Source: Alphaproteobacteria bacterium (lineage in GTDB: Bacteria > Pseudomonadota > Alphaproteobacteria > SMXP01). From it: 64,000 bases of DNA. Under the pieces are notes generated by a model. It was not told where the DNA came from. It saw only the letters and a program-made list of their open reading frames with translations, and made no database searches. How positions within the stretch are numbered: the first letter of the stretch is position 1; each line of letters opens with the position of its first letter. Where the stretch lies: assembly GCA_965214255.1 (NCBI GenBank), contig OZ243948.1:1433885-1497884 (forward strand), written 5' to 3'. Shown one piece after another: positions 1-12,538 of the stretch. A program made the translations under genes and the position numbers.

Positions 1-608
1 AACGCGAACAGTTTTTCCCGAGGGTCGCGGTCGCGCTTGTACTGCTCGACGGCGTCGTCGGCGGTCTGCTTGGTGAGGCTGTTCTTCAGTTCGAAGGTGA
101 GGACGGGAAGGCCGTTGATGAACAGCGCGATGTCCAGCTCGCGCGAAGTCTCGTTCGCGCTGTAGCGCAGTTGCCGGGTGACGGTGAAGCGGTTCTGCTG
201 AAAACGCTCTTGCGCCGTCTCGTTGCCCGGGGACGGGGTGCCGTAGAACAGGTCGATCCGGTGGGCGCCGTGTTTGACGCCATCTCGGAGTACGTCAACG
301 GTCCCGCGCTTGGAGACTTCGCCGCGCAACCGGTCCAGGAACTTGCGGCGGGTGGGGCCGTCTTCCGAAAGGCTCAGAGACTCGGCGACACGAGGTTGCG
401 TCTCCCGGAGGAAGGCGGAGAGTTGGTGCAGGTCGACGCAGTGCTCCCGGTCGTAGTGGCGGTGACTGCCGGGTCTCCACCCGACGCCGCCAGGGGCCGC
501 GGACGTATCGAAGTCCGCCGCAGTGGCCGTCGGCTCGCACGGGTCGCCGGCCAGCGCCGTGCAGATCAGGCGTTCGAGGCCGCGTTCGGTGGTGTCTGTG
601 GTCGTCAT
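1..608 (-). CDS. hsdR: Type I restriction enzyme R subunit (HsdR), N-terminal part; gene runs off the window edge
   Basis: Minus-strand frame is open to position 1 with ATG at 608..606. Hand translation gives MTTTDTTERGLERLICTALAGDP... then ...RELDIALFINGLPVLTFELKNSLTKQTADDAVEQYKRDRDPREKLF, which is the conserved HsdR N-terminal region (D-x-x-L-F-x-N-G-x-P-x-x-x-x-E-x-K). It lies 5 bp downstream of orf256 in the same operon as hsdS and hsdM. Confidence 0.8.
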   Translation of the reverse strand, partial: MTTTDTTERGLERLICTALAGDPCEPTATAADFDTSAAPGGVGWRPGSHRHYDREHCVDLHQLSAFLRETQPRVAESLSLSEDGPTRRKFLDRLRGEVSKRGTVDVLRDGVKHGAHRIDLFYGTPSPGNETAQERFQQNRFTVTRQLRYSANETSRELDIALFINGLPVLTFELKNSLTKQTADDAVEQYKRDRDPREKLFA

Positions 609-613
609 GTCGC

Positions 614-1384
614 CTAGTTCAAGACGGCGACGAATTCGTCCGGTCGCGACCAGCACGAAACGGTGGATAAAGGCTCGATCATCTTGAAATCTTCATCGGA
701 CCAGACGTCGGACGTGTCGTCGAACAACGAAACGAACTCGTGGGCCTTCGGTCCTGCGGCGAGGTGATTCAGATCGTGCCAGACTGCCACCGCGTGCTCG
801 GAGACCCTGCGGGCCGCCGCACGGTTTCCGGTAGTCAAGACCAGAACAAGAGAACTTCGCCGCTCGGCGCGAACGTGAAAATCGATCGTCCAGCGATGCC
901 CCGAACGCCCGACCAGCTTCTCACCGGGTTCGAACTCAAACTCCCTCTCGGTAAGGAAGTCGGCGACGTCACCGGTAATAGACTGAACCGCCTGCGTTCG
1001 GAACGTGAACCACAGGTCGGATACGCGCAGGGCCGCCTGCGCGACCCGGGTGACGACCTCCGCAAGGTCGTCGCCGGGCCGACACTTCGCCTGAAGCATG
1101 CCCCGGCGGAACTCGATTCCATGCGTCACGCATGTATCTTCGATAAGCCGCGTCTGCTTCGGTGAGCGGCGCAACGACATGGACTGCATCCGAAGCCAGC
1201 CCGTGGTTTCGGCAAGGTCGCTCACCGTCACCCCGTTGTCATGGACTTGGCAGAAGAGATCGATGTTGTCGCCGTCCGGGTAGAGATAGGGCGTCCGAAT
1301 CCGTTGATGGTCTCCCTGCTCCGAGCAGGTGAACAAGGCGCCCAAGCGTTCCTGAAGATCACGGCAGATTTGGCTGGAGTCCAT
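614..1384 (-). CDS. Hypothetical protein (256 aa) encoded between hsdS and hsdR; no motif recognised
   Basis: ORF with ATG at 1384..1382 and stop 5 bp before the hsdR start. It is co-oriented and tightly packed inside the hsd operon. No signal peptide and no Walker, HEPN or Fic motifs were seen. Confidence 0.55.
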   Translation of the reverse strand: MDSSQICRDLQERLGALFTCSEQGDHQRIRTPYLYPDGDNIDLFCQVHDNGVTVSDLAETTGWLRMQSMSLRRSPKQTRLIEDTCVTHGIEFRRGMLQAKCRPGDDLAEVVTRVAQAALRVSDLWFTFRTQAVQSITGDVADFLTEREFEFEPGEKLVGRSGHRWTIDFHVRAERRSSLVLVLTTGNRAAARRVSEHAVAVWHDLNHLAAGPKAHEFVSLFDDTSDVWSDEDFKMIEPLSTVSCWSRPDEFVAVLN

Positions 1385-1423
1385 CAGAACATCTCACTTG
1401 GTTATCTTCTCGGCCAATGGAGT

Positions 1424-2875
1424 TCACACCGCCGCCGTTTCACGAGAGGCGTCGATATTGTCGGCTTCCGTCGGAGTCTCGTCAAGTCCGGGGTCGTCGG
1501 TCTCGTCTTCGGCGGCGAGGGGGTCGACCTGCGGCAGGGCCGCCGCCGCTTCGCGCACGTCTAGCTTGCCGGTGACGACATCGGCGACGAGGCGGGCGCG
1601 GTATTCGTCGAGCAGTTCGACTTCGCGGTCGGCGCGGGCGATGGCAGCGTCGATGTCGGCGGCAGCCTTGTCGAGATATGCGACGATGGCGGTTTGTTCG
1701 GGGAGGGGTGGTAAAATCACAGAGACTTTTTTCAACTCAGGCCAGTAAAGATTACGCTGTATTGTTCCTACCCCCTTGGAAAAAATCAGATATTGCGAAA
1801 CCATCAATTTTGTGCGTAGCAAGTAATTTGCATATACCGGATTCCAGCAATCGTTGAGACTTAAGACAATGTATGCTGGGCTTACTATTCCTTTGTATTG
1901 GGATACGCCTACCGATCCACGCCAAGCCTGTTGGTTGTTAAGAACAAAATCTCCCGGATCGACAGCTTGATAGTTAATCAAATCAACGCTTGTGGCATTT
2001 GCGCGCTTTTCTTCGACATCAGAAAACCTAACAACAGATTTATCCAGGTAGACGGAAAGAAGCTCTCGTTCCGGACAGTTACGCACGGACTTTAGATTGG
2101 AAACTGCACAGATCGGTAACACCTCCCAATGCGCCGGTACTTCCCCCAGCCATTCGACGCCGGAGTCCTTCATGGGCGCGTCGGGGTCGAGGCCGCGGGT
2201 GACGGCGCGGTGGACGAGGGCCTGCTTTTGCTCTTTGAGCAGAGCCACCAGCTTGCGCTTCGCCTTCGTGAGCCACCGCACCCGCCGGTCTATGTAGTCC
2301 AGATACCGCACGATGGCAGTTTGTTCATCCGGCGCCGTTGGAACCGCGACCGATATTTCTCGCATCCGAGCCTTCGACAAGTCCCACTGTCCAATACGAA
2401 CCCCATCTGAAGCCTTGTTGAAGCTAGGAACATACGCCTTTGATCTTATGGCCGTGTGAAAGAAGTCGCCATCGACTCCATGAAGGGCAAACACGAAGTA
2501 CGCGGGACTCACCAGCCCATTAAATTTCGACACACCATACGAGCCCTGCCACGCCTTCATCTTGTTCATGGCAAATTGACCTTGTTGAACGACCTTGTAA
2601 TTGCTTAGGTCGTCGGGAACGTAATTGTGGTTTTCGTCCCTATTGGAGAGGTCTCTAAGAATCACACCCTGTTCCCGCACCACTGATAGCAGAGGCAAAT
2701 CAGGCTGATTTCTAGTGACAACAGATCGGAGAAGGTGCCTTAGTTTCTTGATTTCCCAATGCGCCGGTACTTCGCCCAGCCACGCGACGCCGGAGTCCTT
2801 CATTTCGGGATAGGGTTCGAGTGTCTTGGCAACGGCTGCGGCCGTCGCTTCCACAGGTCGATCGGTCCCGGTCAT
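1424..2875 (-). CDS. hsdS: Type I R-M specificity subunit HsdS with two target-recognition domains
   Basis: The duplicated conserved segments KDSGVAWLGEVPAHWE and KDSGVEWLGEVPAHWE and the PEQTAIV motifs fit the two-TRD HsdS architecture. Preferred start is the ATG at 2875, which forms an ATGA overlap with the orf126 stop; the ORF track extends to 2902. Confidence 0.9.
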   Translation of the reverse strand: MTGTDRPVEATAAAVAKTLEPYPEMKDSGVAWLGEVPAHWEIKKLRHLLRSVVTRNQPDLPLLSVVREQGVILRDLSNRDENHNYVPDDLSNYKVVQQGQFAMNKMKAWQGSYGVSKFNGLVSPAYFVFALHGVDGDFFHTAIRSKAYVPSFNKASDGVRIGQWDLSKARMREISVAVPTAPDEQTAIVRYLDYIDRRVRWLTKAKRKLVALLKEQKQALVHRAVTRGLDPDAPMKDSGVEWLGEVPAHWEVLPICAVSNLKSVRNCPERELLSVYLDKSVVRFSDVEEKRANATSVDLINYQAVDPGDFVLNNQQAWRGSVGVSQYKGIVSPAYIVLSLNDCWNPVYANYLLRTKLMVSQYLIFSKGVGTIQRNLYWPELKKVSVILPPLPEQTAIVAYLDKAAADIDAAIARADREVELLDEYRARLVADVVTGKLDVREAAAALPQVDPLAAEDETDDPGLDETPTEADNIDASRETAAV

Positions 2876-3252
2876 GGAGCGGCATCCGCCTTGTACCGCC
2901 AACCGCGCTCCGTAGCGGCTACGGTGAGCCGTTTCGCCTTCTTTTCGACTTGCGTGTTGGAGCAGGCGGTGAAATCGATCAGCGCATGAGCGGGATGAGG
3001 CTCAGGATCGGGCTCAACCGGCAAGTCCTGCGCGGCACAGTCGCCACGGGAGACGGCGAGGACGCCGACCGAGGCGAACCCGAGATCTCCCGTGTAATAC
3101 GCCCAGGCGTCTTCAGCCGTAATCAGATCGCCGTCATAAACCGACAGACGCTTGCCGTCCTTGGGGAAAGGTTTGAACGCCTGGCTGGTCACGCGGCCTT
3201 TCTGTACCCAGGACGGGCTAACCTGACGATACAGCAAGGCGTCGTCGTTCAT
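2872..3252 (-). CDS. Hypothetical protein (126 aa), translationally coupled to orf375 upstream and hsdS downstream
   Basis: ATGA overlaps occur at both ends (3249-3252 and 2872-2875). Sequence: MNDDALLYRQVSPSWVQKGRVTSQAFKPFPKDGKRLSVYDGD...HALIDF. No recognisable family. Confidence 0.5.
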   Translation of the reverse strand: MNDDALLYRQVSPSWVQKGRVTSQAFKPFPKDGKRLSVYDGDLITAEDAWAYYTGDLGFASVGVLAVSRGDCAAQDLPVEPDPEPHPAHALIDFTACSNTQVEKKAKRLTVAATERGWRYKADAAP

Positions 3253-4376
3253 GACGCCTTGCCCAGGGTTTTCTCAAGTTTCTCAACGAGCCATGCCCAG
3301 GAATCGTCATCCTCGAGACCGAGCTCGCGGGTCTCTTCGTCGTCGGTCTCCAGGTCGAGTCCGTGCCATGTGCCGCGCTTATCGGCCAAGTGAATATCCA
3401 GCGACAAGTTCCACCGGTCGTTCGACCACTCGGCGCGAATGTCGCCTTCGGGAGTGGGATAGAGGTGCGGCAACACGGTTTCATCGGGATAATGAAGATC
3501 GCAGGCTCTTTCCAGCCAATCGACCCCGTCCGCCGGAGGAGCTTTGCCTTCCCCTTCCAGCCAGCCGTCCTTCAGCAGGCGTATCTCGTCGAGCCGCGCG
3601 CCGATGTCCAGAGGATCGAGGGCGTTGATGTGCTCGATGGAATCGAATCGGACCAATTTTCCGCCGCGATTCACGACGCCTACTCCTTGAATCAGAACCT
3701 TTTGCCCGGCCTGATAGCCGTTGAACACTTCCAATATGGTGTCTCGGTGTTGCGGAGCAATGGGCGCCGCCACCTTCTTGCCGTCAGGCAACTGCAACTC
3801 GAACCGCATATTGTCCTGATCCGCCTCCGGGACCAGGCCGCGAATGGCGGTCTCCTCGGCGATCTCCCGCGCCGAGGCGGATGCGTAGACCAGTCGTCGC
3901 CTGATTTCGCGGTCGAGTCTTGCGGGAGCAGGCCCGCTCCGCGTTCCGAATTCCATGGCTTCCCCTTCCCGAAGGCTTCGCCCCATCCGGTCGAAGTAGC
4001 TGAGCCATTTCTCGGGCAGGTAATCCGTAATTCCCTCTCCTTTTTCAGCGGCGGCAATGGCCGAAACGATCAAATTACGGGCCTTCTCGAAGTACTTCTG
4101 ATTCACCGGCGGAAACAGCGTCGGAGAGGCCGTAACCAGCGAGATCACGGGAACCGCGCTGCCGTCCTCGATGCCCGTCAGCTTCAATTCGATGCCGTTG
4201 GTAAATCCGCGCGGCGATCTTTTTCGGTCAGGATGGTCTTTGAGAAACTCGGTTTTCGCCACCTCGACGATCATCTCCTCAAGGACGGCCAGGTCCTTCA
4301 AAAACTCCAAGGGGATCGCCTTCCCTTCGAAGCGACTTCCGGTCAGCCTGGGTCGCATGAACTCATGTGCGCTCAT
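3249..4376 (-). CDS. Hypothetical protein (375 aa) within the hsd operon
   Basis: Long ORF with good codon periodicity that overlaps the fic stop by 14 bp and orf126 by ATGA. No catalytic motif recognised; the C-terminus is acidic (…LETDDEETRELGLEDDDSWAWLVEKLEK). Confidence 0.55.
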   Translation of the reverse strand: MSAHEFMRPRLTGSRFEGKAIPLEFLKDLAVLEEMIVEVAKTEFLKDHPDRKRSPRGFTNGIELKLTGIEDGSAVPVISLVTASPTLFPPVNQKYFEKARNLIVSAIAAAEKGEGITDYLPEKWLSYFDRMGRSLREGEAMEFGTRSGPAPARLDREIRRRLVYASASAREIAEETAIRGLVPEADQDNMRFELQLPDGKKVAAPIAPQHRDTILEVFNGYQAGQKVLIQGVGVVNRGGKLVRFDSIEHINALDPLDIGARLDEIRLLKDGWLEGEGKAPPADGVDWLERACDLHYPDETVLPHLYPTPEGDIRAEWSNDRWNLSLDIHLADKRGTWHGLDLETDDEETRELGLEDDDSWAWLVEKLEKTLGKAS

Positions 4377-5607
4377 CGTTCACCTCGACGGTTTCCCCGC
4401 CCGGACTCTCGCCCGCCAATCCCTCGCTCTCACGTTCCGGCGCGGCATCCAGTTCGGTTCCTTCATTGAGGATGGCCAAGTACCGGCCATAAGCGAACAG
4501 GCGCCCGTAGTGCCTTCCCGTAACTTCACGGACAATCCCGTAGTCGACAAGCCGGTCCATCGCCGATGAAACGGCGGGAAAGGAGAGCACCTTGCGCTTG
4601 CAAATCTCGGAAATGGAGAGGATCGGTCGTTCCGTCAGGGCCTGATGCACGAGCAAGGCCGAACCGGTGCGGCGGCCCCGCCTTTCTATGGCTTCCCTGT
4701 CTTTCATAAACATCTCGGACAGGCGGCGAGAGGTGGCGACCGCGTCTTCGGCGCCCACCCGCACGCTTTCGAGAAAGAAAGCCAGCCACGCTTCCCAGTC
4801 ACCGGTGCGGCGCACATGGTCCAACAAATCATAATACGTGCTTTGGCGGCGCTTGAAGTAAAGGCTCAAATACAGCAGCGGTTCCCGCAATACGCCGGAC
4901 CGACAAAGCAGAAGAACGATCAACAGCCGCCCGATGCGCCCGTTGCCGTCGAGGAAGGGATGGACGGTCTCGAACTGTACATGGGCGAGCCCCGCGCGGA
5001 TCAATACCGGCAGCCCGTCGTCCTCCGCGTTCAGAAAGCGCTCCAGGTCGGACATGCAGTCCTGCACGGCGGTATACGGCGGGGGCACGAATACCGCGTT
5101 GCCGGGCCGGGTGCCGCCAATCCAGTTCTGCGAACGGCGGAATTCGCCGGGCGCCTTGTTGCTTCCCCGCCCTCTCCGCAACAACACGCCGTGAATCTCG
5201 CGGATCAGACGATTGGACATCGGGAAGCCTTCCCGCAGGCGGCTCAGGCCGTGCTCCAGGGCGGCCACATGGTTCGAGACTTCGACGACATCGTCCAGCG
5301 GCACGCCGGACCTCTCCTGCGACTCATAAAGCAGGAGATCGGAAAAGGACGATTGCGTTCCCTCTATCTGCGAGGACAGGACGGCTTCCTTGCGTACATA
5401 GGCGTAAAGAAAGAGCGTCGAGTCGGGTAAAAACGCCGAGATGTTATCGAGCCGGCCGAGGGCGAGGGCCGCCGATTCGAAGGACTGTTGCAGAGCGCCG
5501 TCCAGGACGGGCGGGGGATCGGGCGGCAGCGGCGCAGGCAGAAAGGCGCGGACCCGTTCGCCCCCCGCGCTCGTGATTTCGTATCCGCCTATTTCTCCGC
5601 GCTCCAT
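4363..5607 (-). CDS. fic: Fic-family protein (adenylyltransferase/AMPylator fold) with an N-terminal inhibitory helix motif
   Basis: Canonical Fic motif HPFLDGNGRIGRLL (HxFx[DE]GNGRxxR). An upstream [ST]xxxE[GN] inhibitory motif (SSQIEG) is consistent with a class II arrangement. C-terminal region is wHTH-like. ATG at 5607..5605. Confidence 0.85.
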   Translation of the reverse strand: MERGEIGGYEITSAGGERVRAFLPAPLPPDPPPVLDGALQQSFESAALALGRLDNISAFLPDSTLFLYAYVRKEAVLSSQIEGTQSSFSDLLLYESQERSGVPLDDVVEVSNHVAALEHGLSRLREGFPMSNRLIREIHGVLLRRGRGSNKAPGEFRRSQNWIGGTRPGNAVFVPPPYTAVQDCMSDLERFLNAEDDGLPVLIRAGLAHVQFETVHPFLDGNGRIGRLLIVLLLCRSGVLREPLLYLSLYFKRRQSTYYDLLDHVRRTGDWEAWLAFFLESVRVGAEDAVATSRRLSEMFMKDREAIERRGRRTGSALLVHQALTERPILSISEICKRKVLSFPAVSSAMDRLVDYGIVREVTGRHYGRLFAYGRYLAILNEGTELDAAPERESEGLAGESPGGETVEVNDERT

Positions 5608-5686
5608 ATCGGATGAGTACCGAGTGATTTAAAGGAAATTGAATTTACCACTGTGAAATTAAAATTTCACGCAAAAAATTTAATTT
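5563..5686. repeat. Direct repeat copy A (~124 bp): AT-rich segment plus the first ~15 codons of fic
   Basis: About 92% identical to 5947..6069, including the stretch gagtaccgagtgatttaaaggaaattgaatttaccactgtgaaattaaaatttcacgcaaaaaatttaatt. Confidence 0.8.
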
Positions 5687-5743
5687 GCTGTAACCGGCAG
5701 TCCTTCGGGTTCCCGCTCCAAAGCCGGAATGCGGCTCCATATG

Positions 5744-5903
5744 TAACGCAGCCTTTCATACGGCAAGAATATGGTTCTATATGTTCGGCAGCCGTTCATA
5801 TAGCGGGCATTTGGGCCCATATGTAACGCAGCCGTTCATATAGCGGGAATGTGGACCCATATGTAACGCAGCCTTGAATATGGCGTTCTGTTGAGGCGGC
5901 CTT
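5744..5903. repeat. 4 x 40-bp tandem repeat, each unit containing CATATG/CATATA palindromic elements
   Basis: The units ggctccatatgtaacgcagcctttcatacggcaagaatat, ggttctatatgttcggcagccgttcatatagcgggcattt, gggcccatatgtaacgcagccgttcatatagcgggaatgt and ggacccatatgtaacgcagccttgaatatggcgttctgtt are directly adjacent. GC is about 45%. Confidence 0.8.
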
Positions 5904-5946
5904 GAACATTCATGCGGGACACTCCCCGACGATCTCGCCCGGCAGT

Positions 5947-6069
5947 CCCCGCGCTCGTGGTTTCGTATCCGCCTGTTTCTCCGCGCCGCATATCGGATGA
6001 GTACCGAGTGATTTAAAGGAAATTGAATTTACCACTGTGAAATTAAATTTTCACGCAAAAAACTTAATT
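5947..6069. repeat. Direct repeat copy B with a degenerate fic start (MRRGETGGYETTSAG) fused to an hsdM-3'-end-like tail
   Basis: Reverse-complement reads atg cgg cgc gga gaa aca ggc gga tac gaa acc acg agc gcg ggg, then act gcc ggg cga gat cgt cgg. This tail resembles the hsdM terminus gct gct ggg cga gat cgt cgg caa gta g. Copy B lies 40 bp downstream of the true hsdM stop. Confidence 0.7.
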
Positions 6070-6109
6070 CTCTACAAGTAAAACCTTACATCAAGACAGG
6101 TTCAGGTTC

Positions 6110-8083
6110 CTACTTGCCGACGATCTCGCCCAGCAGCCCCCCGCTCTCCCGTCCCAGCGCGAGGATGTCGCCTCGAATCTCCTCAAGGGAGCGCATCGGC
6201 TCCGGCTTGTAGAAGTGGCGCGTGAAGCTGATCTCGTAGCCGATCTTGACAGCTTCCGGGCGATACCAGGCGTCGGGCGCGTAGGGCAAGACCTCGCGCT
6301 TCAGGAACGCCTCTATGCCGCCCTTCTCGGTGAGCGGGACCTGCTCCGTGTCGCGCAGGTCCGGGTCCGGCTCGTACTCGACCACGGCGGGTTCGCCCTC
6401 GACGGTCGCCTCGAACAAGCCATGCAGAGGGTCCGCCCCCCCCCGCCTGTGGATCTTGCGGATGACGGGCGGCGCGTCCTCGGAGCGCGCGCCGGTCTCT
6501 TTGAGCGTCTTGATCTCCGCCGCCTTGCAGGCGCGGTTCGGGTCGGCGCCCTCGATGCGGAGCGGGCGCTCCACGACCACTTTCCAATACCCGAAAGCCT
6601 CGTTGTCGAAGATCCTGCTCCGCTCGGTTTCCTCGAAATCGAGGAACGCCTCGCAGATGCGCCGGATGTCGTCCTCGCCCAACTCGCAGTTCTTCTTGCC
6701 CAGATTCTTACGCAGGGGCCGGTACCACTCGGTCGCGTCGATGAGTTGCACTTTGCCCCGGCGGTGCTCCGGCTTGCGGTTGGTCAGCACCCAGACGTAG
6801 GTGGCGATGCCGGTGTTGTAGAACAGGTTCAGCGGCAGCGCGACGATCGCTTCCAGCCAGTCGTTCTCGATGATCCAGCGGCGGATGTTGCTCTCGCCCT
6901 GGCCGGCGTCGCCGGTGAACAGCGAACTGCCGTTGTGGACCTCGGCGATGCGGCTGCCGAGGGGCGTGTCCCGCTTCATCTTGGAGAGCAGGTTGACGAG
7001 GAACAGCATCTGCCCGTCGCTCGACCGCGTCACCAGGGAATATTCCGGGTCGTCGCCGTGTTGGATCATAAAGCGCGGATCGTGCATGTCCTTCTTGCCG
7101 CCCATGCGCTCCAGGTCCGTCTTCCAGCTTTTGCCGTAGGGCGGATTGGAGAGCATGAAGTCGAACGCGCGCGGGTGGGGGTAGGCATCGTTGGCCAGGG
7201 TGGAGTGTTGCGGGCCGCCCTCGATTTTATCCGCGTCATCGCCCTCGCCCTTGAGCATCAGGTCGGCCTTGCAGATCGCCGCGGTCTCCGCGTTGATCTC
7301 CTGGCCGTAGAGGTGCGTCGAGACCTGTTTCCCGCGTTCCGCGGCCAGTTCCTGCAGCGTCTGTTCCGCCAGGGTCAGCATGCCGCCGGTCCCGCACGCG
7401 CCGTCATAGAGAAGGTACGTGCCGGATTCGATCCGGTCGGAGATCGGCTGGAACACCAGCTTCGCCATCAGCCGCACCGCGTCGCGGGGCGTCCAGTGCT
7501 CACCGGCCTCCTCGTTGTTCTCCTCGTTGAAGCGGCGCACCAGTTCTTCGAAGATCGTACCGATGGCGTGGTTGTCGAGGCCCGGGAGCTTGATATCGCC
7601 TTTGGCGTCCTTGACGGGTTCCGGGCTCAGGTTCACCTTGGGGGAGGTGAATTTCTCGATCAAGACCCCGAGCGCGTCGGCGCGGCTCAGGCGGGGGATC
7701 TGGTTGCGGAACTCGAAGTTGTCGAGTATCTCCTGCACGTTCGGCGAGAATCCGTCGAGATAGGCCAAGAAGTCCGCTTCAAGTTGGTGCTGGTTGCCTC
7801 GCGCCCGCAGATCGTTGAGCGTGAATTGGGAGGTGTTGTAGAACGCCTGCCCCGACGCCTGGCGCAAGGCGGCGCTCTGGTCGACCAGACCGGCCCGGTC
7901 GAGACTGGCCTTCATGTCGAGGACCGCCCGTTTGGTGTCTTCGAGGACCGCGTCGAGACGACGCAGGACGGTCATCGGGAGGATCACGTCGCGGTACTTG
8001 CCCCGCGTGTAGAGGTCCCGGAGCACGTCATCGGCGATTCCCCAAATGTAGTTCGCAATCCACGTTACATCGCCGTTGGTCAT
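6110..8083 (-). CDS. hsdM: Type I R-M N6-adenine DNA methyltransferase subunit HsdM (long form, 657 aa)
   Basis: NPPYG catalytic motif (LSNPPYGKSW) and a SAM-binding region (LYDGACGTGGML). Neighbours hsdS and hsdR lie on the same strand. Confidence 0.9.
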   Translation of the reverse strand: MTNGDVTWIANYIWGIADDVLRDLYTRGKYRDVILPMTVLRRLDAVLEDTKRAVLDMKASLDRAGLVDQSAALRQASGQAFYNTSQFTLNDLRARGNQHQLEADFLAYLDGFSPNVQEILDNFEFRNQIPRLSRADALGVLIEKFTSPKVNLSPEPVKDAKGDIKLPGLDNHAIGTIFEELVRRFNEENNEEAGEHWTPRDAVRLMAKLVFQPISDRIESGTYLLYDGACGTGGMLTLAEQTLQELAAERGKQVSTHLYGQEINAETAAICKADLMLKGEGDDADKIEGGPQHSTLANDAYPHPRAFDFMLSNPPYGKSWKTDLERMGGKKDMHDPRFMIQHGDDPEYSLVTRSSDGQMLFLVNLLSKMKRDTPLGSRIAEVHNGSSLFTGDAGQGESNIRRWIIENDWLEAIVALPLNLFYNTGIATYVWVLTNRKPEHRRGKVQLIDATEWYRPLRKNLGKKNCELGEDDIRRICEAFLDFEETERSRIFDNEAFGYWKVVVERPLRIEGADPNRACKAAEIKTLKETGARSEDAPPVIRKIHRRGGADPLHGLFEATVEGEPAVVEYEPDPDLRDTEQVPLTEKGGIEAFLKREVLPYAPDAWYRPEAVKIGYEISFTRHFYKPEPMRSLEEIRGDILALGRESGGLLGEIVGK

Positions 8084-8128
8084 GGGCCGGGGTCTCGGAA
8101 GGGTGAAGGGCGCGGCGATCTTACCCGA

Positions 8129-8157
8129 CGGGCGCGGGGAAAACAGCCCCCCGCCCG
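8129..8157 (-). terminator. GC-rich hairpin downstream of the phosphatase gene (possible terminator, no U-tract)
   Basis: cgggcgcgggg-aaaacag-ccccccgcccg forms an 11-bp stem with one mismatch. It lies 20 bp past the stop at 8177. Confidence 0.25.
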
Positions 8158-8176
8158 ATACGATTCGACAGGGCGT

Positions 8177-8881
8177 TCAGCGCCGCCGGGCATGACGATA
8201 ACGCGCCGCCGGCGCGCCGTGGGCCTGGAGAAATCGAGGGTCGCCGCCGTCGAGAACGACGGCCGTCATGGCGCCGGAAAAATAGGCGCCGGTATCGATG
8301 CCGATTCGATTGGGCTTGAGTTCCGGGTCCGCACGGGGCGAATGGCCGTGCACCACCTTCACCGGAGCGCCCTTATAGGTGTAGGCGCGCTCGCTGTTCA
8401 AAAACCGATCCCTGATCCAGTAGAGATCGCGCGTTTTCTGATGCTCCAGATCGGTCTCCGGGTCGACCCCCGCATGGGCGAAATAGAAACCGTCCCGCAC
8501 ATGATGGGAGGCAAGGCCGGCGATCCAGTCGCGGTGAGCTTTCGGCACCTCCCCGCCGTAGCTTGTCAAAGTCTGCGCGCCGCCGTTGAGGAGCCACACA
8601 TGGCCGTGTTTTCCGGCGTAATAGTCCTCCATCAACGCTTCGTGGTTGCCTTTGAGGCATATTTCGTCGAACCCGTGCTTGGCGAGGGGTTTTTCCATCA
8701 GCAACCCGACGACGCCTGCGGAATTTTCGCCGCGGTCGATATAGTCGCCCAGATAGACGACGGTGCGCGCCCGCTCCCGATAATGCTCGGCCGCGTCTTT
8801 CGCTATCAGGTCCACGAGCCGGGCGAACTGGTCGAGCATGCCGTGAACGTCGCCCACGGCGTAGGTCACGCGCCGCGTCAT
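8177..8881 (-). CDS. Metallophosphoesterase, Ser/Thr protein phosphatase 1 / ApaH-like family
   Basis: Phosphoesterase motifs GDVHG, GDYIDRG and GNHE. Confidence 0.85.
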   Translation of the reverse strand: MTRRVTYAVGDVHGMLDQFARLVDLIAKDAAEHYRERARTVVYLGDYIDRGENSAGVVGLLMEKPLAKHGFDEICLKGNHEALMEDYYAGKHGHVWLLNGGAQTLTSYGGEVPKAHRDWIAGLASHHVRDGFYFAHAGVDPETDLEHQKTRDLYWIRDRFLNSERAYTYKGAPVKVVHGHSPRADPELKPNRIGIDTGAYFSGAMTAVVLDGGDPRFLQAHGAPAARYRHARRR

Positions 8882-8924
8882 GGGACTCTCCCGGTTCGGA
8901 CGATTTGTCGACTGCGCGCCATTC

Positions 8925-10637
8925 TCAGCGAATGAAACCGAGACTTTCGAGTTTGACGATCAGGCGGTGGGCCGCCAGATCGGGAGACAGTTGTTCCGTA
9001 TCTATGGAGATTTCGGGATTTTCGGGAACGTCGTAGGGGTCGCTGATACCCGTGAACTCCTTGATCAGGCCGGCGCGCGCCTTGGCGTAAAGCCCCTTTC
9101 GGTCCCGCCGTTCGCACACCTGCAAGGACGTCGCGACATAGGACTCCACGAAACCGCCGACGGGCTCGATCATCTCGCGCACCGCCCGCCGCGTCGCGGC
9201 ATAGGGCGCTATAGGCGCGCAAATGGCGATGCCTCCGTTCTTGGTGATCTCGCTCGCCACATATCCTATGCGCAGGATGTTGAGATCGCGGTGTTCTTTC
9301 GAAAAGCCCAGTTCGCTCGACAGGTTCTTGCGGACGATATCGCCGTCCAAAAGCGTGATCCGCCGCCCGCCGATTTCCATGAGCTTTATCATCAGAGCGT
9401 TGGCGACGGTCGACTTGCCCGACCCGGAAAGACCCGTAAAGAACACGGTGAAGCCCTGCTCGTGCCGCGGCGGATGGGTCTTGCGCAGTTCGCTGATGAC
9501 GGCGGGGAACGAAAACCAGTCGGGAACGTCGAGACCCTCGCGCAGCCGTCGGCGCATTTCGGTGCCCGAAATCTCGAGGACCGTCTCGTCGGACCCGGTC
9601 CGGTCCACCGGCACGTACTGGTTCCGCTCCCGGACATAGACCATCGCGCGGAACGGCACCATGGCGATGCCCAACTCGTCTTCGAACTTCACCATGAGGT
9701 CCTGAGCGTCGTAAGGACCGTAAAAATCCTTGCCGTTCCTGTCCTTCCCCGGGCCCGCATGGTCGCGCCCCACGATGAAATGCGTGCAGCCGTAATTTTT
9801 TCGGATAAGGGCGTGCCAAAGCGCTTCGCGCGGGCCCGCCATGCGCATCGCCAGAGGCAGCAGGCTCAGCGCCGTCGTTTGATCCGGGTATTGATGCAGC
9901 ACATGCTCGTAGCAGCGCACGCGAGTGAAATGGTCGACGTCGCCCGGCTTGGTCATGCCGACGACCGGATGAATGAGCAGATTGGCCTCCGCCTCGCGCG
10001 CGGCCCTGAAGGTCAGTTCCTGGTGCGCGCGGTGCATGGGATTGCGCGTTTGAAAGGCGACGACCCTGCGCCAGCCCAGCTTCTCGAAGCGGTCGCGCAG
10101 CTCCCGGGGGCTGTATCTCAAATGTTTGAAATCGTAATGGATCGGGGCCTGGACCCCGGCGAGGGCGCCGCCCAGGTAAACCGGATGGGCGCGATTGAAA
10201 AGATAGTTGACGCCGGGATGCGTGTCGTCGACGGTGCCGAACACCGCCCGGGCTTCGGATTCCTTGTCGGGCGTCCATTTCTCTTCGACTTCGAGGCTTG
10301 CGATATGGACCCCTTCACGGTCTCGAAGCACGAGGGTCTCGTCGATGTCGACCGTAGCGGCGAACTCCTCGGACACGTCCAGCGTGACGGGCATGGGCCA
10401 CAGCACGCCGCTGTCAAGCCGCATGTCTTTCAAGACGCTCTCGTAGTCGGCTTGTTTCAAAAAACCGTCGAGCGGCGAGAACGCCCCGTTGAGCAACAAT
10501 TCCACATCGCAGATCTGGCGCTCGGTCAAATCCCAGGACTTGAAATCAAGCGCCCGTTTCTTTTCGCGCTCCGCCTGCTCGGACGACAGATAAAGAATCT
10601 TGAGTTCGCCGCCGTGCGGCTCTTTGAAAGCCCCCAT
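8925..10637 (-). CDS. sat: Bifunctional sulfate adenylyltransferase (ATP sulfurylase) / adenylylsulfate kinase
   Basis: N-terminal ATP-sulfurylase region (FQTRNPMHRAHQEL) and C-terminal APS-kinase P-loop (GLSGSGKST). Confidence 0.9.
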   Translation of the reverse strand: MGAFKEPHGGELKILYLSSEQAEREKKRALDFKSWDLTERQICDVELLLNGAFSPLDGFLKQADYESVLKDMRLDSGVLWPMPVTLDVSEEFAATVDIDETLVLRDREGVHIASLEVEEKWTPDKESEARAVFGTVDDTHPGVNYLFNRAHPVYLGGALAGVQAPIHYDFKHLRYSPRELRDRFEKLGWRRVVAFQTRNPMHRAHQELTFRAAREAEANLLIHPVVGMTKPGDVDHFTRVRCYEHVLHQYPDQTTALSLLPLAMRMAGPREALWHALIRKNYGCTHFIVGRDHAGPGKDRNGKDFYGPYDAQDLMVKFEDELGIAMVPFRAMVYVRERNQYVPVDRTGSDETVLEISGTEMRRRLREGLDVPDWFSFPAVISELRKTHPPRHEQGFTVFFTGLSGSGKSTVANALMIKLMEIGGRRITLLDGDIVRKNLSSELGFSKEHRDLNILRIGYVASEITKNGGIAICAPIAPYAATRRAVREMIEPVGGFVESYVATSLQVCERRDRKGLYAKARAGLIKEFTGISDPYDVPENPEISIDTEQLSPDLAAHRLIVKLESLGFIR

Positions 10638-10830
10638 CGATCAGTTCTCCAAACGCACCAGGATCCGCCGCCGAATCGCTGCGCGAAGCGATAGTTTAGT
10701 TCCGGGGACAAGGCAAGCCGTTTTCCACAATTACTTGAGGAAACCCCGGCGCGCGGAGCGAAGATCGGCGATGGGCGCGCGCGGTCGAGACGGCTCCCGC
10801 CGTGACGTCAACGGCGGATGATATTGTCCG

Positions 10831-11307
10831 TCACGGCCTGTCGCCGGGGCCGTCCGCGGCCCGGTCGTCTTCACCGTCGTTCGACCGCCGTATCGGCGAC
10901 GCGGCGCGCCGCCAAGAGCCCCGCTCCACTCGATAGCGCCCGCGGGCGGAAAACGACTCGCCCGGCGGCTTCACGACCTCGACGAGCGCGCCGGCCAGCG
11001 AAATACAACTGCGGTGATTGAGCATATGGACGGATGTCTCGCCTCCCGTCGTCGCCCGGACAAGGACGGCCTGAGCGTCGTCGTCGCCGCGGCGGAAGCC
11101 TCGATTGCACACGGTCACGCCGCGGGCGCGGGCGCCCGTATCGACAATCACGGCGTCGTTCAGTTCGGTGACCGCCCAGGAATTCCAACCGCCGGTTGCA
11201 ATCCTGCTCAAGGCGACGGAGCGAAACGAGAGCGAAAACGAAAGCGCGACCGCGCCGAGCGCGATCACGACGGCGAAAACCGCCAAACACAGATTCACGA
11301 TCTTCAT
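10831..11307 (-). CDS. Hypothetical exported protein (158 aa) with an N-terminal hydrophobic signal-like segment
   Basis: MKIVNLCLAVFAVVIALGAVALS... is signal-like. The alternative overlapping frame 10871..11464 is arginine-rich and low-complexity, so it was rejected. Confidence 0.4.
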   Translation of the reverse strand: MKIVNLCLAVFAVVIALGAVALSFSLSFRSVALSRIATGGWNSWAVTELNDAVIVDTGARARGVTVCNRGFRRGDDDAQAVLVRATTGGETSVHMLNHRSCISLAGALVEVVKPPGESFSARGRYRVERGSWRRAASPIRRSNDGEDDRAADGPGDRP

Positions 11308-11478
11308 GAAAATGCCCTTCCCTGATAATGAACGGCTGTCGACTGCGGCGCCGGAAGCGGTCTCGAACCCGGTCGTGCAACCGGCCCCGAACGAGGACCG
11401 GATGGTGTTTCGGGGACATTAAATCATGCTTAAACATCCGCGAGCGACGGCGAGAGGCGCTCACGCCGAAGCGGCGTA

Positions 11479-12411
11479 TCAGGCGGCGGGGCGAAAGCCG
11501 AGCGGGAGCCCGGCGTCGGGGACGAAACCGTACATGTCTTCATCGGGCACCGCTGCGGCCACCACCTTGCGCACCTCCAGCAATTGGTGCAGGTCGATGC
11601 CCGTCTTGAGACCCATCGCTTCGAGCATGAAGACCAGATCTTCGGTGACGATGTTGCCGCTGGCGCCCGGCGCGAACGGACAGCCGCCGATGCCGCCGAG
11701 GGAACTGTCGATCGTGGTGACGTCTTCCTCGATCGCCGCCAGGACATTGGCGAGGCCCAGGCCGCGGGTGTTGTGCAAATGAATGCCCGTGACCGCGTCC
11801 GCGCCGACGGCGGCGCGCACCGCGCGGATCATGTCTTTGACCTGCTTCGGGTTGGCGTAGCCGGTCGTATCCGACAGTCCGACTTCGTCGCAGCCCGCCG
11901 CCATCAACTGCTCCGCAAGGGAAACCACCTTCGACTGCGGGATCTCGCCTTCCAGGGTGCATCCGAACGCCGTCGACAAGCCGCCTTCGAACTTGGGCCT
12001 CTCGTCGGCAGGTAGACCCCTCAGAAGCGCCGCGATGCCGCGCACCTCGTCCAACATCCGGGCGTGGTCGCGGTTGACGTTTTTGAGACTGTGGGTCTCG
12101 CTCACGGACAAGGGAATGGTGATCTTGTGGACGCCGGTTTTGACGGCGTTTTCGGCCCCCTTCAGATTCGGCACCAGCGCCGCGACGGTGAGGCCCTCGA
12201 TGGTGAGCGCATGTTCGACGACGGCCGCCGTATCGGCCAGTTGCGGCAAGATCCTGGGCGGCACGAAAGAGCCGACCTCGATTTCCGGAACGCCGGCCGC
12301 CGCTTCCGCCGCGATCCATGCCTTCTTGGCCTCGGTCGGCATGATGGAGTCGATGCTTTGGAGGCCGTCTCGCGGGCCGACTTCGCTGATCTCGATATCA
12401 ATGGCGCTCAT
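11479..12411 (-). CDS. Hydroxymethylglutaryl-CoA lyase
   Basis: Motifs EVGPRDGLQ, GGCPFAPGASGN and the HxH-type metal ligands typical of the HMGL-like TIM barrel. Confidence 0.85.
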   Translation of the reverse strand: MSAIDIEISEVGPRDGLQSIDSIMPTEAKKAWIAAEAAAGVPEIEVGSFVPPRILPQLADTAAVVEHALTIEGLTVAALVPNLKGAENAVKTGVHKITIPLSVSETHSLKNVNRDHARMLDEVRGIAALLRGLPADERPKFEGGLSTAFGCTLEGEIPQSKVVSLAEQLMAAGCDEVGLSDTTGYANPKQVKDMIRAVRAAVGADAVTGIHLHNTRGLGLANVLAAIEEDVTTIDSSLGGIGGCPFAPGASGNIVTEDLVFMLEAMGLKTGIDLHQLLEVRKVVAAAVPDEDMYGFVPDAGLPLGFRPAA

Positions 12412-12538
12412 GAACCTTTACCATGTCTCGTGAATGGATTAAGTGAAACTCCGCAAACGCGTTTTACCCCATGACGCCGCGCGACGGAAGCATATGTCAC
12501 TGATCCTTTGACCTGTTTTACCAAGGAACGAAGCCCCG

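What the first reader, a model, noticed from the sequence alone, without database searches (positions are those of the whole stretch)
5563..6069. Duplicated junction: the fic 5' end plus its AT-rich leader is repeated and fused to an hsdM-3'-like tail
Copy B (5947-6069) reproduces the AT-rich leader and the first ~15 codons of fic, with MERGEIGGYEITSAG changed to MRRGETGGYETTSAG. At the microhomology AGCGCGGGG it then switches to sequence resembling the last codons of hsdM (…GRDRRGV versus …GLLGEIVGK). Copy B sits 40 bp after the real hsdM stop. This looks like a recombination scar from insertion or duplication of the fic cassette. It means the operon promoter region is present twice.
Basis: seen in the sequence. 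Interest (0 to 1): 0.5.

Follow-up and report, generated by a model that had tools for sequence, protein, structure and literature searches.

The report
Stacked recombination scars between hsdM and fic
The repeat is real: the gap between a restriction-system methylase gene (hsdM) and an embedded SoFic-type defence gene holds leftover pieces of earlier gene arrangements, which hints at how defence genes get swapped into such operons, but the leftovers show no sign of a function of their own.

Summary
On the minus strand, 123 nt (AT-rich leader plus fic codons 1-15) occur twice, at 5563-5685 (copy A) and 5947-6069 (copy B), with 117/123 identity. Copy B starts 40 nt after the hsdM stop. It switches to an hsdM-tail-like stretch (T', 5921-5950) at a G-run shared 12/13 by fic and hsdM.

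It is not an assembly artefact. Two further conspecific strains (~97.7% nt identity), from three other assemblies, carry the same structure.

- A second, older hsdM-tail stub (T'', 5693-5735) lies just upstream of copy A. It resembles other alleles but not the resident hsdM.
- A 40-nt palindromic tandem array lies between the stubs and varies in copy number between strains.
- The two spacers are unrelated, so this is not a simple tandem duplication.
- Only copy B keeps the ancestral -35/-10 context.
- The central tract of the two copies evolves in concert, which indicates gene conversion.

Best reading: two layers of illegitimate, displacement-type recombination between haplotypes of a Type I R-M operon with embedded cassettes. 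Related loci show hsdM stubs in front of other cassettes. I found no evidence that the scar has a function. Interest is modest.

The parts
6110..8083 (-). hsdM (Type I R-M methylase, 657 aa). Its last codons (...ESGGLLGEIVGK*) are the resident tail T.
   Evidence: Pfam HsdM_N + N6_Mtase. 98% identical to the hsdM of L149 and L151.
6136..6148 (-). G-run motif GAGAGCGGGGGGC in the hsdM tail. It matches fic GAGCGCGGGGGGC (5560-5572) at 12/13 and is the microhomology partner for junction J1.
   Evidence: Coordinates and sequences; also visible.
6112..6141 (-). T: the resident hsdM tail segment that is repeated as T'.
   Evidence: the repeat finder family D3, 87% over 30 nt. BLASTN 90% over 31 nt, E 0.001.
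6070..6109 (-). S: 40-nt spacer between the hsdM stop and copy B. It carries a promoter-like -35 TTGATG (6089-6094), a 16-nt spacer, and a -10 GAGAAT (6067-6072) that straddles the start of the repeat.
   Evidence: Collinear with the outgroup L150 region TTGACA-17-TAAATT. This is a consensus match only; the stricter scan finds no site.
5947..6069 (-). Copy B: AT-rich leader (5992-6069) plus a pseudo-start ATG (5989-5991) and fic codons 1-15.
   Evidence: 123-nt repeat, 117/123 identical to copy A. Present in L149, L151 and L152.
6037..6054 (-). Palindrome GTGAAAATTTAATTTCAC in the copy B leader (operator-like).
5941..5956 (-). J1: novel joint GAGCGCGGGG|ACTGCC between fic codon 15 and the hsdM tail.
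   Evidence: The same joint is present in L151 and L152, where it is in frame.
5921..5950 (-). T': stub of the last ~10 codons of an hsdM (GLPGEIVGE), with the stop codon lost.
   Evidence: 26/30 identical to T. nhmmer with a profile of nine hsdM tails hits positions 123-146, E 0.01. Present in L151/L152; largely deleted in L149.
5836..5991 (-). 51-codon ORF that starts at the copy B ATG. Not conserved, so probably not a gene.
   Evidence: After residue 15 the ORFs of the three strains differ in frame and length (51, 60 and 55 aa).
5722..5915. Tandem array of a 40-nt unit. TRF.8 copies at 5722-5873; I read one further degenerate unit by eye towards about 5915. Each unit has an imperfect palindrome (ATATGnAACG-n4-CGTTnCATAT). 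The last unit overlaps the start of T''.
   Evidence: TRF and the repeat finder; unit register. L149 has only 2 units. Two SPAdes contigs end inside the array. Not found elsewhere in the window, in the 150 loci held when one search was run, or in viral contigs.
5693..5735 (-). T'': older stub of hsdM codons about -24 to -9 (reads ..IPALEREPEGLP), from an allele that looks like the family consensus.
   Evidence: nhmmer profile positions 91-134: E 2e-7 in the intergenic region and 5.5e-5 in the whole window on both strands. 30/40 to 33/43 identical to the tails of L028, L036 and L064 (32/44, 73%, to L002), with 0-1 of 1000 shuffles reaching the score. Not similar to the window's own hsdM tail (p 0.42). 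Also present in L149 at 9866-9907.
5679..5700 (-). J2: joint CTGCCGG|TTACAGCA-AATTAAA between T'' and the start of the copy A leader. It replaces the -35 and spacer seen upstream of copy B.
5563..5685 (-). Copy A: the leader (5608-5685) and first 15 codons of the intact fic gene.
5653..5670 (-). Palindrome GTGAAATTTTAATTTCAC in the copy A leader.
5617..5635 (-). Minimum gene-conversion tract in copy A. The matching tract in copy B is 6001-6019.
   Evidence: At CC/TG, the 8-nt indel and C/G, the two copies agree within a genome and differ between genomes. The flanking sites are copy-specific in both genomes. The outgroup gives the polarity.
4363..5607 (-). fic: a SoFic-type Fic protein (414 aa) with HPFLDGNGRIGR at residue 216 and SSQIEG at residue 78.
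   Evidence: Pfam Fic_N + Fic. PADLOC SoFic model, E 1e-112, full length. PDB SoFic 3eqx, E 3e-31 over residues 45-382. Motifs.
1424..4376 (-). Rest of the operon: PDC-M32A (3249-4376), PDC-M32B (2872-3252) and hsdS (1424-2902).
   Evidence: PADLOC and Pfam Methylase_S.

Best explanation
The 502-nt gap between hsdM and the embedded SoFic-type fic gene is a two-layer recombination scar. I see no sign that it is a functional unit.

Read on the minus strand, the order is: hsdM (tail T) - S (spacer with the ancestral promoter-like -35/-10) - copy B (leader plus fic codons 1-15) || J1 || T' (last ~10 codons of an hsdM) - 40-nt tandem array - T'' (codons about -24 to -9 of another, consensus-like hsdM allele) || J2 || copy A (leader plus intact fic).

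Inferred history:
1. An older event (J2) joined a fic cassette, cut between its -35 and -10, to a truncated hsdM tail.
2. A later event (J1) brought in, or unequally recombined, a closely related haplotype with the simple order hsdM-S-leader-fic.
3. The left end of that event lay in homologous hsdM sequence. The right end was an illegitimate joint at the 12/13-nt G-run shared by fic codons 13-17 and the hsdM tail.
4. This displaced the old hsdM but left its last codons (T') and everything downstream.

This is the pattern of homology-facilitated illegitimate recombination, or 'displacement'. A sister-chromosome exchange between two such haplotypes would give the same product.

Since then:
- The two 123-nt copies have exchanged sequence by gene conversion at least once in each of two lineages.
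- The 40-nt array has changed copy number.
- One strain has deleted T'.

Likely consequence (inferred, not shown): transcription reaching fic starts at or upstream of copy B, or reads through from hsdM. It would cross a junk ORF and the hairpin array before the second leader.
For: Shown:
- The repeat and the joints are real.
- The same structure is found in three conspecific strains from four assemblies, so it is inherited and predates their split.
- S and X are not homologous, which argues against a plain tandem duplication.
- S plus copy B is collinear with the promoter-leader region of the closest outgroup, L150. The copy A context is not.
- T'' is a significant hsdM-tail match (E 2e-7 and 5.5e-5). 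It is unlike the resident tail and 73-77% identical to tails from other phyla.
- hsdM homologues lose similarity right after ...GLLxEIxG, where T/T' homology also ends. The L/L' homology starts at the first base of the AT-rich leader palindrome. Both ends of the non-homologous spacer therefore fall at natural module borders.
- Concerted evolution is seen. Copy-specific sites at both ends are shared across strains. A central tract (2-nt change, 8-nt indel, 1 substitution) groups by genome. The outgroup shows changes in both lineages.
- The copy-B ORF is not conserved beyond residue 15.

Analogues in unrelated lineages:
- L028: hsdM | hicBA | 290-nt hsdM stub | fic.
- L018: hsdM | fic | stub | AAA ATPase.
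- L020: hsdM | fic + PIN | stub | KAP NTPase | hsdS.

The mechanism is established elsewhere: HFIR and displacement arrays in T6SS and Rhs loci (PMC5361080, PMC3240628).
Against: - Neither 'parent' haplotype (hsdM-S-leader-fic alone, or hsdM-array-T''-leader-fic alone) was found. All three available conspecific strains already carry the composite.
- T' differs from the resident T by only 1 of 20 core bases. It could therefore come from the resident allele in situ.
- The order of events and the direction (incoming versus resident) are inferred.
- The origin of the 40-nt unit is unexplained. It gives no significant hsdM-profile hit.
- Retention of a 123-nt direct repeat only 261 nt apart in three strains, with ongoing conversion, could also reflect selection, which I cannot exclude.
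- In 64 other hsdM-family loci from IMG/VR no stub was found. Against the ~8 of those with embedded genes, the enrichment is not significant (p 0.2).
Confidence: 0.62

Rival explanations
1. In-situ tandem duplication. Replication slippage or unequal sister-chromosome exchange at the 12/13-nt G-run duplicated [hsdM tail-S-leader-fic codons 1-15]. The second spacer was later remodelled by deletion and by growth of the 40-nt array.
For: - The 12/13 microhomology sits exactly at the joint.
- The T' core is 19/20 identical to the resident T, and the copies are 95% identical.
- The array clearly expands and contracts between strains.
Against: - S and X show no detectable homology.
- The place where S' should be is occupied by T'', an hsdM-tail fragment that matches other alleles (73-77%) but not the resident hsdM (p 0.42). 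A local duplication cannot create that.
- Copy A lacks the -35 and spacer that copy B shares with the outgroup.
Confidence: 0.2
2. A maintained regulatory architecture. The duplicated leader (two operator palindromes 384 nt apart) and the hairpin array would be kept by selection. They might allow looping or autoregulation by the wHTH-containing SoFic-like protein, or attenuation between hsdM and fic-hsdS.
For: - The structure is retained in three strains, and the central leader tract is homogenised by gene conversion.
- AT-rich leaders with long palindromes are a family-wide feature of these fic genes: 69/79 are AT-rich, and 23/79 have long inverted repeats versus 3/79 in a coding control.
- The protein matches SoFic, deposited as 'FIC domain containing transcriptional regulator'.
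- The whole intergenic RNA folds somewhat better than shuffles (z -3.1).
Against: - The strains are only ~2.3% diverged, so retention is weak evidence.
- The leader differs between strains more than the flanks do: 6 substitutions in 78 nt versus 2.3%.
- The palindrome itself is mutated in copy A of L149.
- T' is deleted in L149, and the array copy number varies from 2 to 4-5.
- The copy-B ORF is not conserved.
- The leader RNA fold is unremarkable (z -0.4 to +0.3 in the window).
- There are no Rfam hits.
- Homologous loci with hsdM-fic manage with a single leader (L016, L064).
Confidence: 0.12
3. Footprint of a mobile element or site-specific cassette system (MITE, IS, integron-like) that inserted into the 5' end of fic.
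For: - A 261-nt segment is bounded by direct repeats.
- The fic cassette is found in many genomic contexts and phyla.
Against: - 123 nt is far longer than any transposon target duplication (established knowledge).
- No terminal inverted repeats were found.
- No other copy of the array or leader exists in 64 kb, in the loci held when one search was run (one conspecific hit only), or in IMG/VR.
- No recombinase or transposase domain was found in the genes scanned from 614 to 12411.
- The inserted segment is made of hsdM-tail pieces.
- Breakpoints differ between lineages.
Confidence: 0.04
4. Assembly artefact (collapsed or chimeric contig).
For: Short-read contigs of one strain break inside the array.
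Against: - Four assemblies agree on copy B.
- Three (window, L151, L152) share the J1/T' joint.
- Two (window, L149) span both copies, with strain-specific differences.
Confidence: 0.01

Closest known systems
Displacement / orphan-module arrays in Rhs, CDI and T6SS effector-immunity loci, proposed to form by homology-facilitated illegitimate recombination (Kirchberger et al. 2017, PMC5361080, and the Rhs and CDI work cited there)
   Same: - A conserved upstream gene serves as the homologous anchor.
- A new module arrives with its own copy of that gene.
- The old module is pushed downstream and keeps a stub of the conserved gene's 3' end.
- Repeated rounds stack stubs. This window has T' and T''. 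L018, L020 and L028 have a stub in front of the next cassette.
   Different: - The anchor here is the methylase gene of a Type I R-M system, and the modules are embedded defence cassettes (SoFic, hicBA, PIN, KAP or AAA NTPases), not toxin tips with immunity genes.
- In this window the newer layer contributed only a promoter-leader and 15 codons, not a working module.
- No experiment supports the mechanism in these uncultured organisms.
Homology-facilitated illegitimate recombination in transformation and conjugation (de Vries & Wackernagel 2002; Prudhomme et al. 2002; Meier & Wackernagel 2003, as cited in PMC5361080; Amarir-Bouhram et al. 2011, PMC3240628)
   Same: One end lies in homology (hsdM, which is highly conserved). 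The other end is a joint at a short G+C-rich microhomology (12/13 nt here).
   Different: It is inferred from sequence only. An intrachromosomal or sister-chromosome unequal exchange between two haplotypes would leave the same product.
Microhomology-mediated tandem duplication (slipped-strand or unequal crossing-over)
   Same: There are direct repeats, a single novel joint at a microhomology, and later copy-number change in the 40-nt array.
   Different: The two units are not collinear. S and X are unrelated, and X contains a foreign-allele hsdM stub.
Defence systems embedded in Type I R-M, BREX, DISARM and Hma operons ('guilt by embedding', Payne et al. 2024, bioRxiv 10.1101/2024.01.29.577857); SoFic as a single-gene defence system (PADLOC model)
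   Same: The operon is hsdM - SoFic - PDC-M32A/B - hsdS - PDC-M24B, all on one strand.
   Different: A term search of that preprint found no occurrence of 'recombination', so it seems not to address how cassettes get in. The scars here bear on that question.
Concerted evolution of short intragenomic repeats by gene conversion
   Same: Paralogous copies share derived states within a genome, including an 8-nt indel, in a contiguous tract. The flanking sites stay copy-specific.
   Different: The repeats are only 123 nt long and 261 nt apart, and they are non-coding or pseudo-coding.

Membership tests
Simple tandem duplication | Two adjacent units that are collinear over their whole length | tested here: not met
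   T/T' and L/L' align, but the spacers S (40 nt) and X (235 nt) do not. The shuffle tests gave p 0.43 and 0.90.
Simple tandem duplication | A single novel joint at a microhomology | tested here: met
   J1 lies at GAGCGCGGGG|ACTGCC. The fic and hsdM motifs match 12/13. A second joint, J2, also exists.
Displacement / HFIR-type orphan-stub array | A conserved upstream anchor gene shared by the recombining partners | tested here: met
   The best 120 hsdM homologues listed are 80-84% identical, apart from the 98% conspecific. Conservation ends at ...GLLxEIxG.
Displacement / HFIR-type orphan-stub array | A stub of the anchor gene's 3' end retained in front of the displaced module | tested here: met
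   T' (E 0.01) and T'' (E 2e-7 and 5.5e-5) with an hsdM-tail profile. Analogous stubs occur in L018, L020, L028 and L029.
Displacement / HFIR-type orphan-stub array | Stubs derive from alleles other than the current anchor gene | tested here: inconclusive
   T'' meets this: it is 73-77% identical to other alleles and unlike the resident tail. T' does not clearly meet it: it is 19/20 identical to the resident core and shares CTGCCGG with T''.
Displacement / HFIR-type orphan-stub array | Existence of the parental arrangements, or an observed recombination event | tested here: not met
   No conspecific strain with a single-layer arrangement was found in the genome, metagenome or protein collections.
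Site-specific cassette system (integron or shufflon type) | A recombinase gene at the locus and conserved recombination sites at cassette borders | tested here: not met
   No recombinase domain was found in the nine ORFs from 614 to 12411. Breakpoints differ between lineages. No inverted repeats flank the segment.
Transposable element / MITE | Terminal inverted repeats, a short target duplication and multiple genomic copies | tested here: not met
   There are no TIRs and the 'duplication' is 123 nt. The leader occurs exactly twice and the array once in 64 kb. The array was found in none of the loci held when one search was run, apart from conspecific L149, and not in IMG/VR.
REP/BIME-like extragenic palindromes (for the 40-nt array) | Imperfect palindromic unit | tested here: met
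   The unit carries ATATGnAACG-n4-CGTTnCATAT.
REP/BIME-like extragenic palindromes (for the 40-nt array) | Dispersed in many intergenic regions of the genome | tested here: not met
   It occurs only at this locus in the 64-kb window. The rest of the 2.79-Mb genome could not be read.
Known structured RNA (Rfam) | A match to a covariance model | tested here: not met
   No hit at E <= 1 in 5000-6700, and none at gathering score in the whole window. The leader fold has z about 0.
SoFic-type Fic defence protein (for the gene whose 5' end is repeated) | Full-length match to the SoFic model and structure, the HxFx(D/E)GNGRxxR motif and the N-terminal (S/T)xxxE(G/N) motif | tested here: met
   PADLOC SoFic E 1e-112, model positions 6-359 of 361. 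PDB SoFic E 3e-31. HPFLDGNGRIGR at 216 and SSQIEG at 78. Defence activity was not tested.
Sigma-70 promoter (claim that the promoter is duplicated) | -35 and -10 hexamers at 16-18 nt spacing upstream of both copies | tested here: not met
   The tool's threshold gives 0 sites. A looser scan finds TTGATG-16-GAGAAT only upstream of copy B, at the position of the outgroup's TTGACA-17-TAAATT. It finds none upstream of copy A.

The most novel reading that the evidence does not exclude
The hsdM 3' end may act as the recurrent recombination arm through which embedded defence cassettes (SoFic, hicBA, PIN, KAP or AAA NTPases) are stacked into this widely transferred Type I R-M family. Each new hsdM+cassette segment would displace the old hsdM and leave its tail as a stub in front of the older cassette. 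'Embedding' would then arise by displacement rather than by insertion. This window would be a two-layer example. The stubs would give a readable record of the order in which cassettes were acquired.
Probability: 0.35. Interest if true: 0.55.

Novelty: new variant of a known kind. Interest (0 to 1): 0.33.

Why it matters
Taken alone, the repeat is a harmless leftover. Its anatomy is still informative: hsdM-tail stubs, a fic 5' fragment, a joint at a 12/13-nt microhomology, and the same kind of stub in front of other cassettes in unrelated MAGs. Together these give a concrete and testable account of how defence genes become nested inside Type I restriction-modification operons. A term search of the main paper on embedded defence systems found no mention of recombination. 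The case also gives a practical warning. Short-read assemblies break at this spot, and gene callers will report a spurious 51-codon ORF. The functional fic gene may also depend on a promoter about 460 nt upstream of its start codon.

Tried and rejected
- Rfam, on the region at E <= 1 and on the whole window at gathering score: no hits.
- Consensus promoter and terminator scan of 5400-6300: 0 sites.
- RNA folding of the leaders: z about 0 for both window copies, -2.1 for one L149 copy, so no conserved structure is evident.
- Homology between the two spacers S and X: none.
- Homology of X to the hsdM-fic linkers of eight other loci and of outgroup L150: none, except the stretch that turned out to be the hsdM stub T''.
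- The 40-nt unit as an hsdM-derived sequence: no significant profile hit. Only its last ~20 nt resemble the start of T''. Its origin remains unknown.
- The 40-nt unit elsewhere: absent from the rest of the window, from the 149 non-conspecific loci held, and from IMG/VR.
- Copy B as a remnant of a distinct functional allele: its R2, T6 and T11 are common states in homologues. The outgroup, however, shows that copy B simply has more derived changes than copy A. Inconclusive.
- Copy-B ORF as a conserved small protein: rejected.
- Search for single-layer 'parent' haplotypes: the genome contigs and metagenome-contig scans gave nothing closer than 76% for fic. The protein searches gave only two other conspecific strains, both already composite.
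- Generality of the stubs: 0 of 64 IMG/VR hsdM-family loci carry a downstream copy of their own tail, and 0 of 70 give a second profile hit. The stubs are therefore not a general feature of hsdM loci. The contrast with fic-linked loci is significant only against the whole control set (p 0.0009), not against the ~8 control loci that have embedded genes (p 0.2).
Full report
**Locus.** All genes here lie on the minus strand.
- hsdM: 6110-8083 (HsdM_N + N6_Mtase).
- A 502-nt gap.
- fic: 4363-5607 (Fic_N + Fic).
- Two genes that match the PADLOC candidates PDC-M32A and PDC-M32B: 3249-4376 and 2872-3252.
- hsdS: 1424-2902.
- A DUF1828 / PDC-M24B gene: 614-1384.

The Fic protein is SoFic-like. It matches the PADLOC SoFic model at E 1e-112 over the full length, and PDB SoFic 3eqx at E 3e-31 over residues 45-382. 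It carries HPFLDGNGRIGR and the N-terminal SSQIEG motif. This is a Type I R-M operon with embedded defence cassettes, an arrangement described in general by Payne et al. (bioRxiv 10.1101/2024.01.29.577857).

**Checking the observation.**
- The two copies, 5563-5685 (A) and 5947-6069 (B), share 117 of 123 bases, without gaps, BLASTN E 7e-51.
- The leader core occurs only twice in 64 kb; 100 shuffles gave 0 matches.
- Copy B begins 40 nt after the hsdM stop.
- After GAGCGCGGGG it continues with 30 nt that match the end of hsdM at 26/30 (T', 5921-5950, versus T, 6112-6141), with the stop codon lost.
- Both partners of this joint carry nearly the same 13-mer: fic GAGCGCGGGGGGC and hsdM GAGAGCGGGGGGC.
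The resemblance is at DNA level only. In a sister strain the joint is in frame.

**Not an artefact, and older than the strains.**
- The window's fic and hsdM proteins are identical to cluster members recorded on a 2,787,154-nt contig.
- The protein search found one 98%-identical Fic on an independent ENA contig, L149. It is syntenic and 97.7% identical over 9.8 kb of flank. L149 has both copies.
- A third strain is represented by two SPAdes contigs, L151 and L152. These carry hsdM, S, copy B, the joint and T', and then stop inside the tandem array, as short-read assemblies do at repeats.

**Concerted evolution of the two copies.**
- In a four-way alignment, the outer sites are copy-specific and shared across strains. 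These are AATTAA[A/G], ATG[GA/CG]G, AAA[T/C]AGG and GAAA[T/C]CACG.
- A central tract groups by genome instead: CC versus TG, an 8-nt indel, and C versus G.
- The nearest outgroup, L150 (fic 81% identical, homologous leader), has TG, no insert, and C.
- So the window lineage changed both copies at one site, and the L149/L151 lineage changed both copies at the other two. That means at least two gene-conversion events.

**What lies between the copies.** The 261 nt between B and A are not foreign filler.
- A profile built from the last 147 nt of nine non-conspecific hsdM genes hits two places in the gap. T' is at 5949-5926 (profile positions 123-146, E 0.01).
- The stronger hit is T'' at 5735-5693 (profile positions 91-134). 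It scores E 2e-7 in the gap and 5.5e-5 against the whole window on both strands.
- T'' reads ..IPALEREPEGLP, against the family's ADILALE(K/R)ETEGLL.
- It is 30/40 to 33/43 identical to the tails of L028, L036 and L064, and 32/44 (73%) to L002. It is not similar to the window's own unusual tail GDILALGRESGGLL (score 14 versus 13.4 in shuffles).
- L149 has T'' too.
- Between T' and T'' lie four good units and one degenerate unit of a 40-nt sequence with an internal palindrome. L149 has two units and has lost most of T'.
- The array is unique to this locus in everything I could search, and its origin is unexplained.

**Why this is not a plain tandem duplication.**
- The spacer before copy B (S, 40 nt) and the segment before copy A (X, 235 nt) are not alignable.
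- S plus copy B is collinear with the outgroup's promoter-like region. L150 has TTGACA-17-TAAATT and the window has TTGATG-16-GAGAAT at the same distance from the ATG.
- Upstream of copy A, the -35 and spacer are replaced by T''.
- Homology between T and T' stops at ...EIVG, exactly where all hsdM homologues stop resembling each other.
- Homology between the copies starts at the first base of the AT-rich leader palindrome.
- Both edges of the non-homologous part therefore fall at module borders. That is expected if two different haplotypes of 'hsdM - linker - fic' recombined.

**Proposed mechanism (inferred).**
1. An older event (J2) fused a fic cassette, cut between -35 and -10, to a truncated consensus-like hsdM tail.
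2. A later event (J1) placed a closely related hsdM-S-leader-fic(5') segment in front of it.
3. One crossover of that event lay in hsdM homology. The other was an illegitimate joint at the 12/13-nt G-run.
4. The old hsdM's last codons (T') were left behind.

This is the logic of homology-facilitated illegitimate recombination and of the 'displacement' arrays of Rhs, CDI and T6SS loci (PMC5361080; PMC3240628). I put this at about 0.6. An in-situ slippage duplication with later remodelling is at about 0.2. It explains J1 well but does not explain T'' or the loss of S.

**Is the scar functional?** I found nothing that says so.
- The ORF starting at copy B differs in frame and length in the three strains.
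- There is no Rfam match.
- The leader RNA fold is unremarkable.
- There is no consensus promoter or terminator at the tool's threshold.
- T' and the array vary or are deleted between strains.
- A maintained two-operator design cannot be excluded. AT-rich, palindrome-bearing leaders are typical of this fic family (mean GC drop 0.17; 69/79 loci; long inverted repeats in 23/79 versus 3/79 in a coding control). The protein is of the wHTH-bearing SoFic type. I give this 0.12.

**Related loci.**
- fic homologues of 60-76% identity occur in MAGs of more than ten phyla.
- Where they sit next to this hsdM family, the hsdM-fic gap ranges from about 102-112 nt (L016, L064) to 1.4 kb. It holds hicBA, a hicB remnant, an RHH antitoxin-like ORF (read by eye from the sequence) or long tandem repeats.
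- Three of eight such loci carry an extra hsdM 3' stub, always directly in front of the next cassette:
  - L028: hsdM | hicBA | 290-nt stub (96%) | fic.
  - L018: hsdM | fic | stub | AAA ATPase.
  - L020: hsdM | fic + PIN | stub | KAP NTPase | hsdS.
- Stubs also accompany fic where no R-M system remains (L029, L041, L047).
- As a control, none of 64 hsdM-family loci from IMG/VR has a downstream copy of its own tail, and none of 70 gives a second profile hit. Most of those have hsdS immediately after hsdM.
- The contrast is significant against the whole control set (p 0.0009) but not against the roughly eight control loci with embedded genes (p 0.2). The general 'stacking by displacement' idea is therefore a lead, not a result.

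**Verdict.**
It is a scar, but neither a cassette duplication nor a duplicated promoter.
- The kind of event is known. Its occurrence as layered hsdM stubs in an R-M operon with embedded defence genes is, as far as my searches show, not described.
- Interest is modest.

Noticed in passing
L020:7989-8079; L018:7298-7440; L028:5690-5832; L029:7199-7299; L041:4089-4187; L047:5577-5675: hsdM 3' stubs sit directly in front of successive embedded cassettes (KAP NTPase, AAA ATPase, fic). They also accompany fic in loci with no R-M system left: L029 lies next to TldD, and L047 lies next to shikimate dehydrogenase and has an hsdS head fragment after fic. A control set of 64 IMG/VR hsdM loci has none.
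   Followed up: partly
L001-L148 (region upstream of each fic match): fic homologues of 60-76% identity occur in MAGs of more than ten phyla. Nearly all have an AT-rich leader of about 120 nt (mean GC 0.17 below the locus), often with long palindromes of the type TTATTGTAATTTA...TAAATTACAATAA plus a second TTATTGA...TCAATAA. This looks like a portable promoter/operator. The window's leader uses a different palindrome.
   Followed up: partly
P0152, P0162, P0174, P0195, P0197, P0200, P0210, P0218, P0230, P0235 (hsdM homologues of 759-837 aa): Some hsdM homologues read through ...GLLxEIxG into the next cassette's ORF (one has a DUF262 domain hit; others carry a sequence I read as PIN-like). All homologues lose similarity at exactly that point.
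   Followed up: partly
window 614-2902 versus L149:12733-14895: Between conspecific strains the hsdS target-recognition regions are swapped; only the conserved parts align. The gene after hsdS also differs (DUF1828 / PDC-M24B here, DUF6978 in L149). The flanks are 97.7% identical.
   Followed up: partly
window 2872-4376: The two genes between fic and hsdS match the PADLOC candidate system PDC-M32 (A: E 3e-145; B: E 2e-51). They have no Pfam domain, and no homologue of the 375-aa gene was found in the 80 fic loci from genomes.
   Followed up: no
L020:5204-5845: Three tandem copies of a 242-nt unit (92-96% identical) fill the hsdM-fic gap of a Nitrospirales MAG. They contain REP-like GTCATTCCCGCG...GCGGGAATCCAG hairpins.
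   Followed up: no
window 2124-2173 and 2754-2803: A 50-nt direct repeat (94%) lies inside hsdS. It is the usual internal repeat that separates the two target-recognition domains.
   Followed up: no
window 1-12500: No hsdR-sized ORF lies next to the operon. The genes upstream of hsdM are a metallophosphoesterase and a bifunctional ATP sulfurylase / APS kinase. The restriction subunit may be elsewhere or beyond the window edge.
   Followed up: no
L150:637-651: The closest outgroup fic (81%) has an in-frame TAA at codon 5 (ATG CAG CGC GGA TAA). Its gene was therefore called from a later ATG. This may be a pseudogene or a read error in a Logan contig.
   Followed up: no
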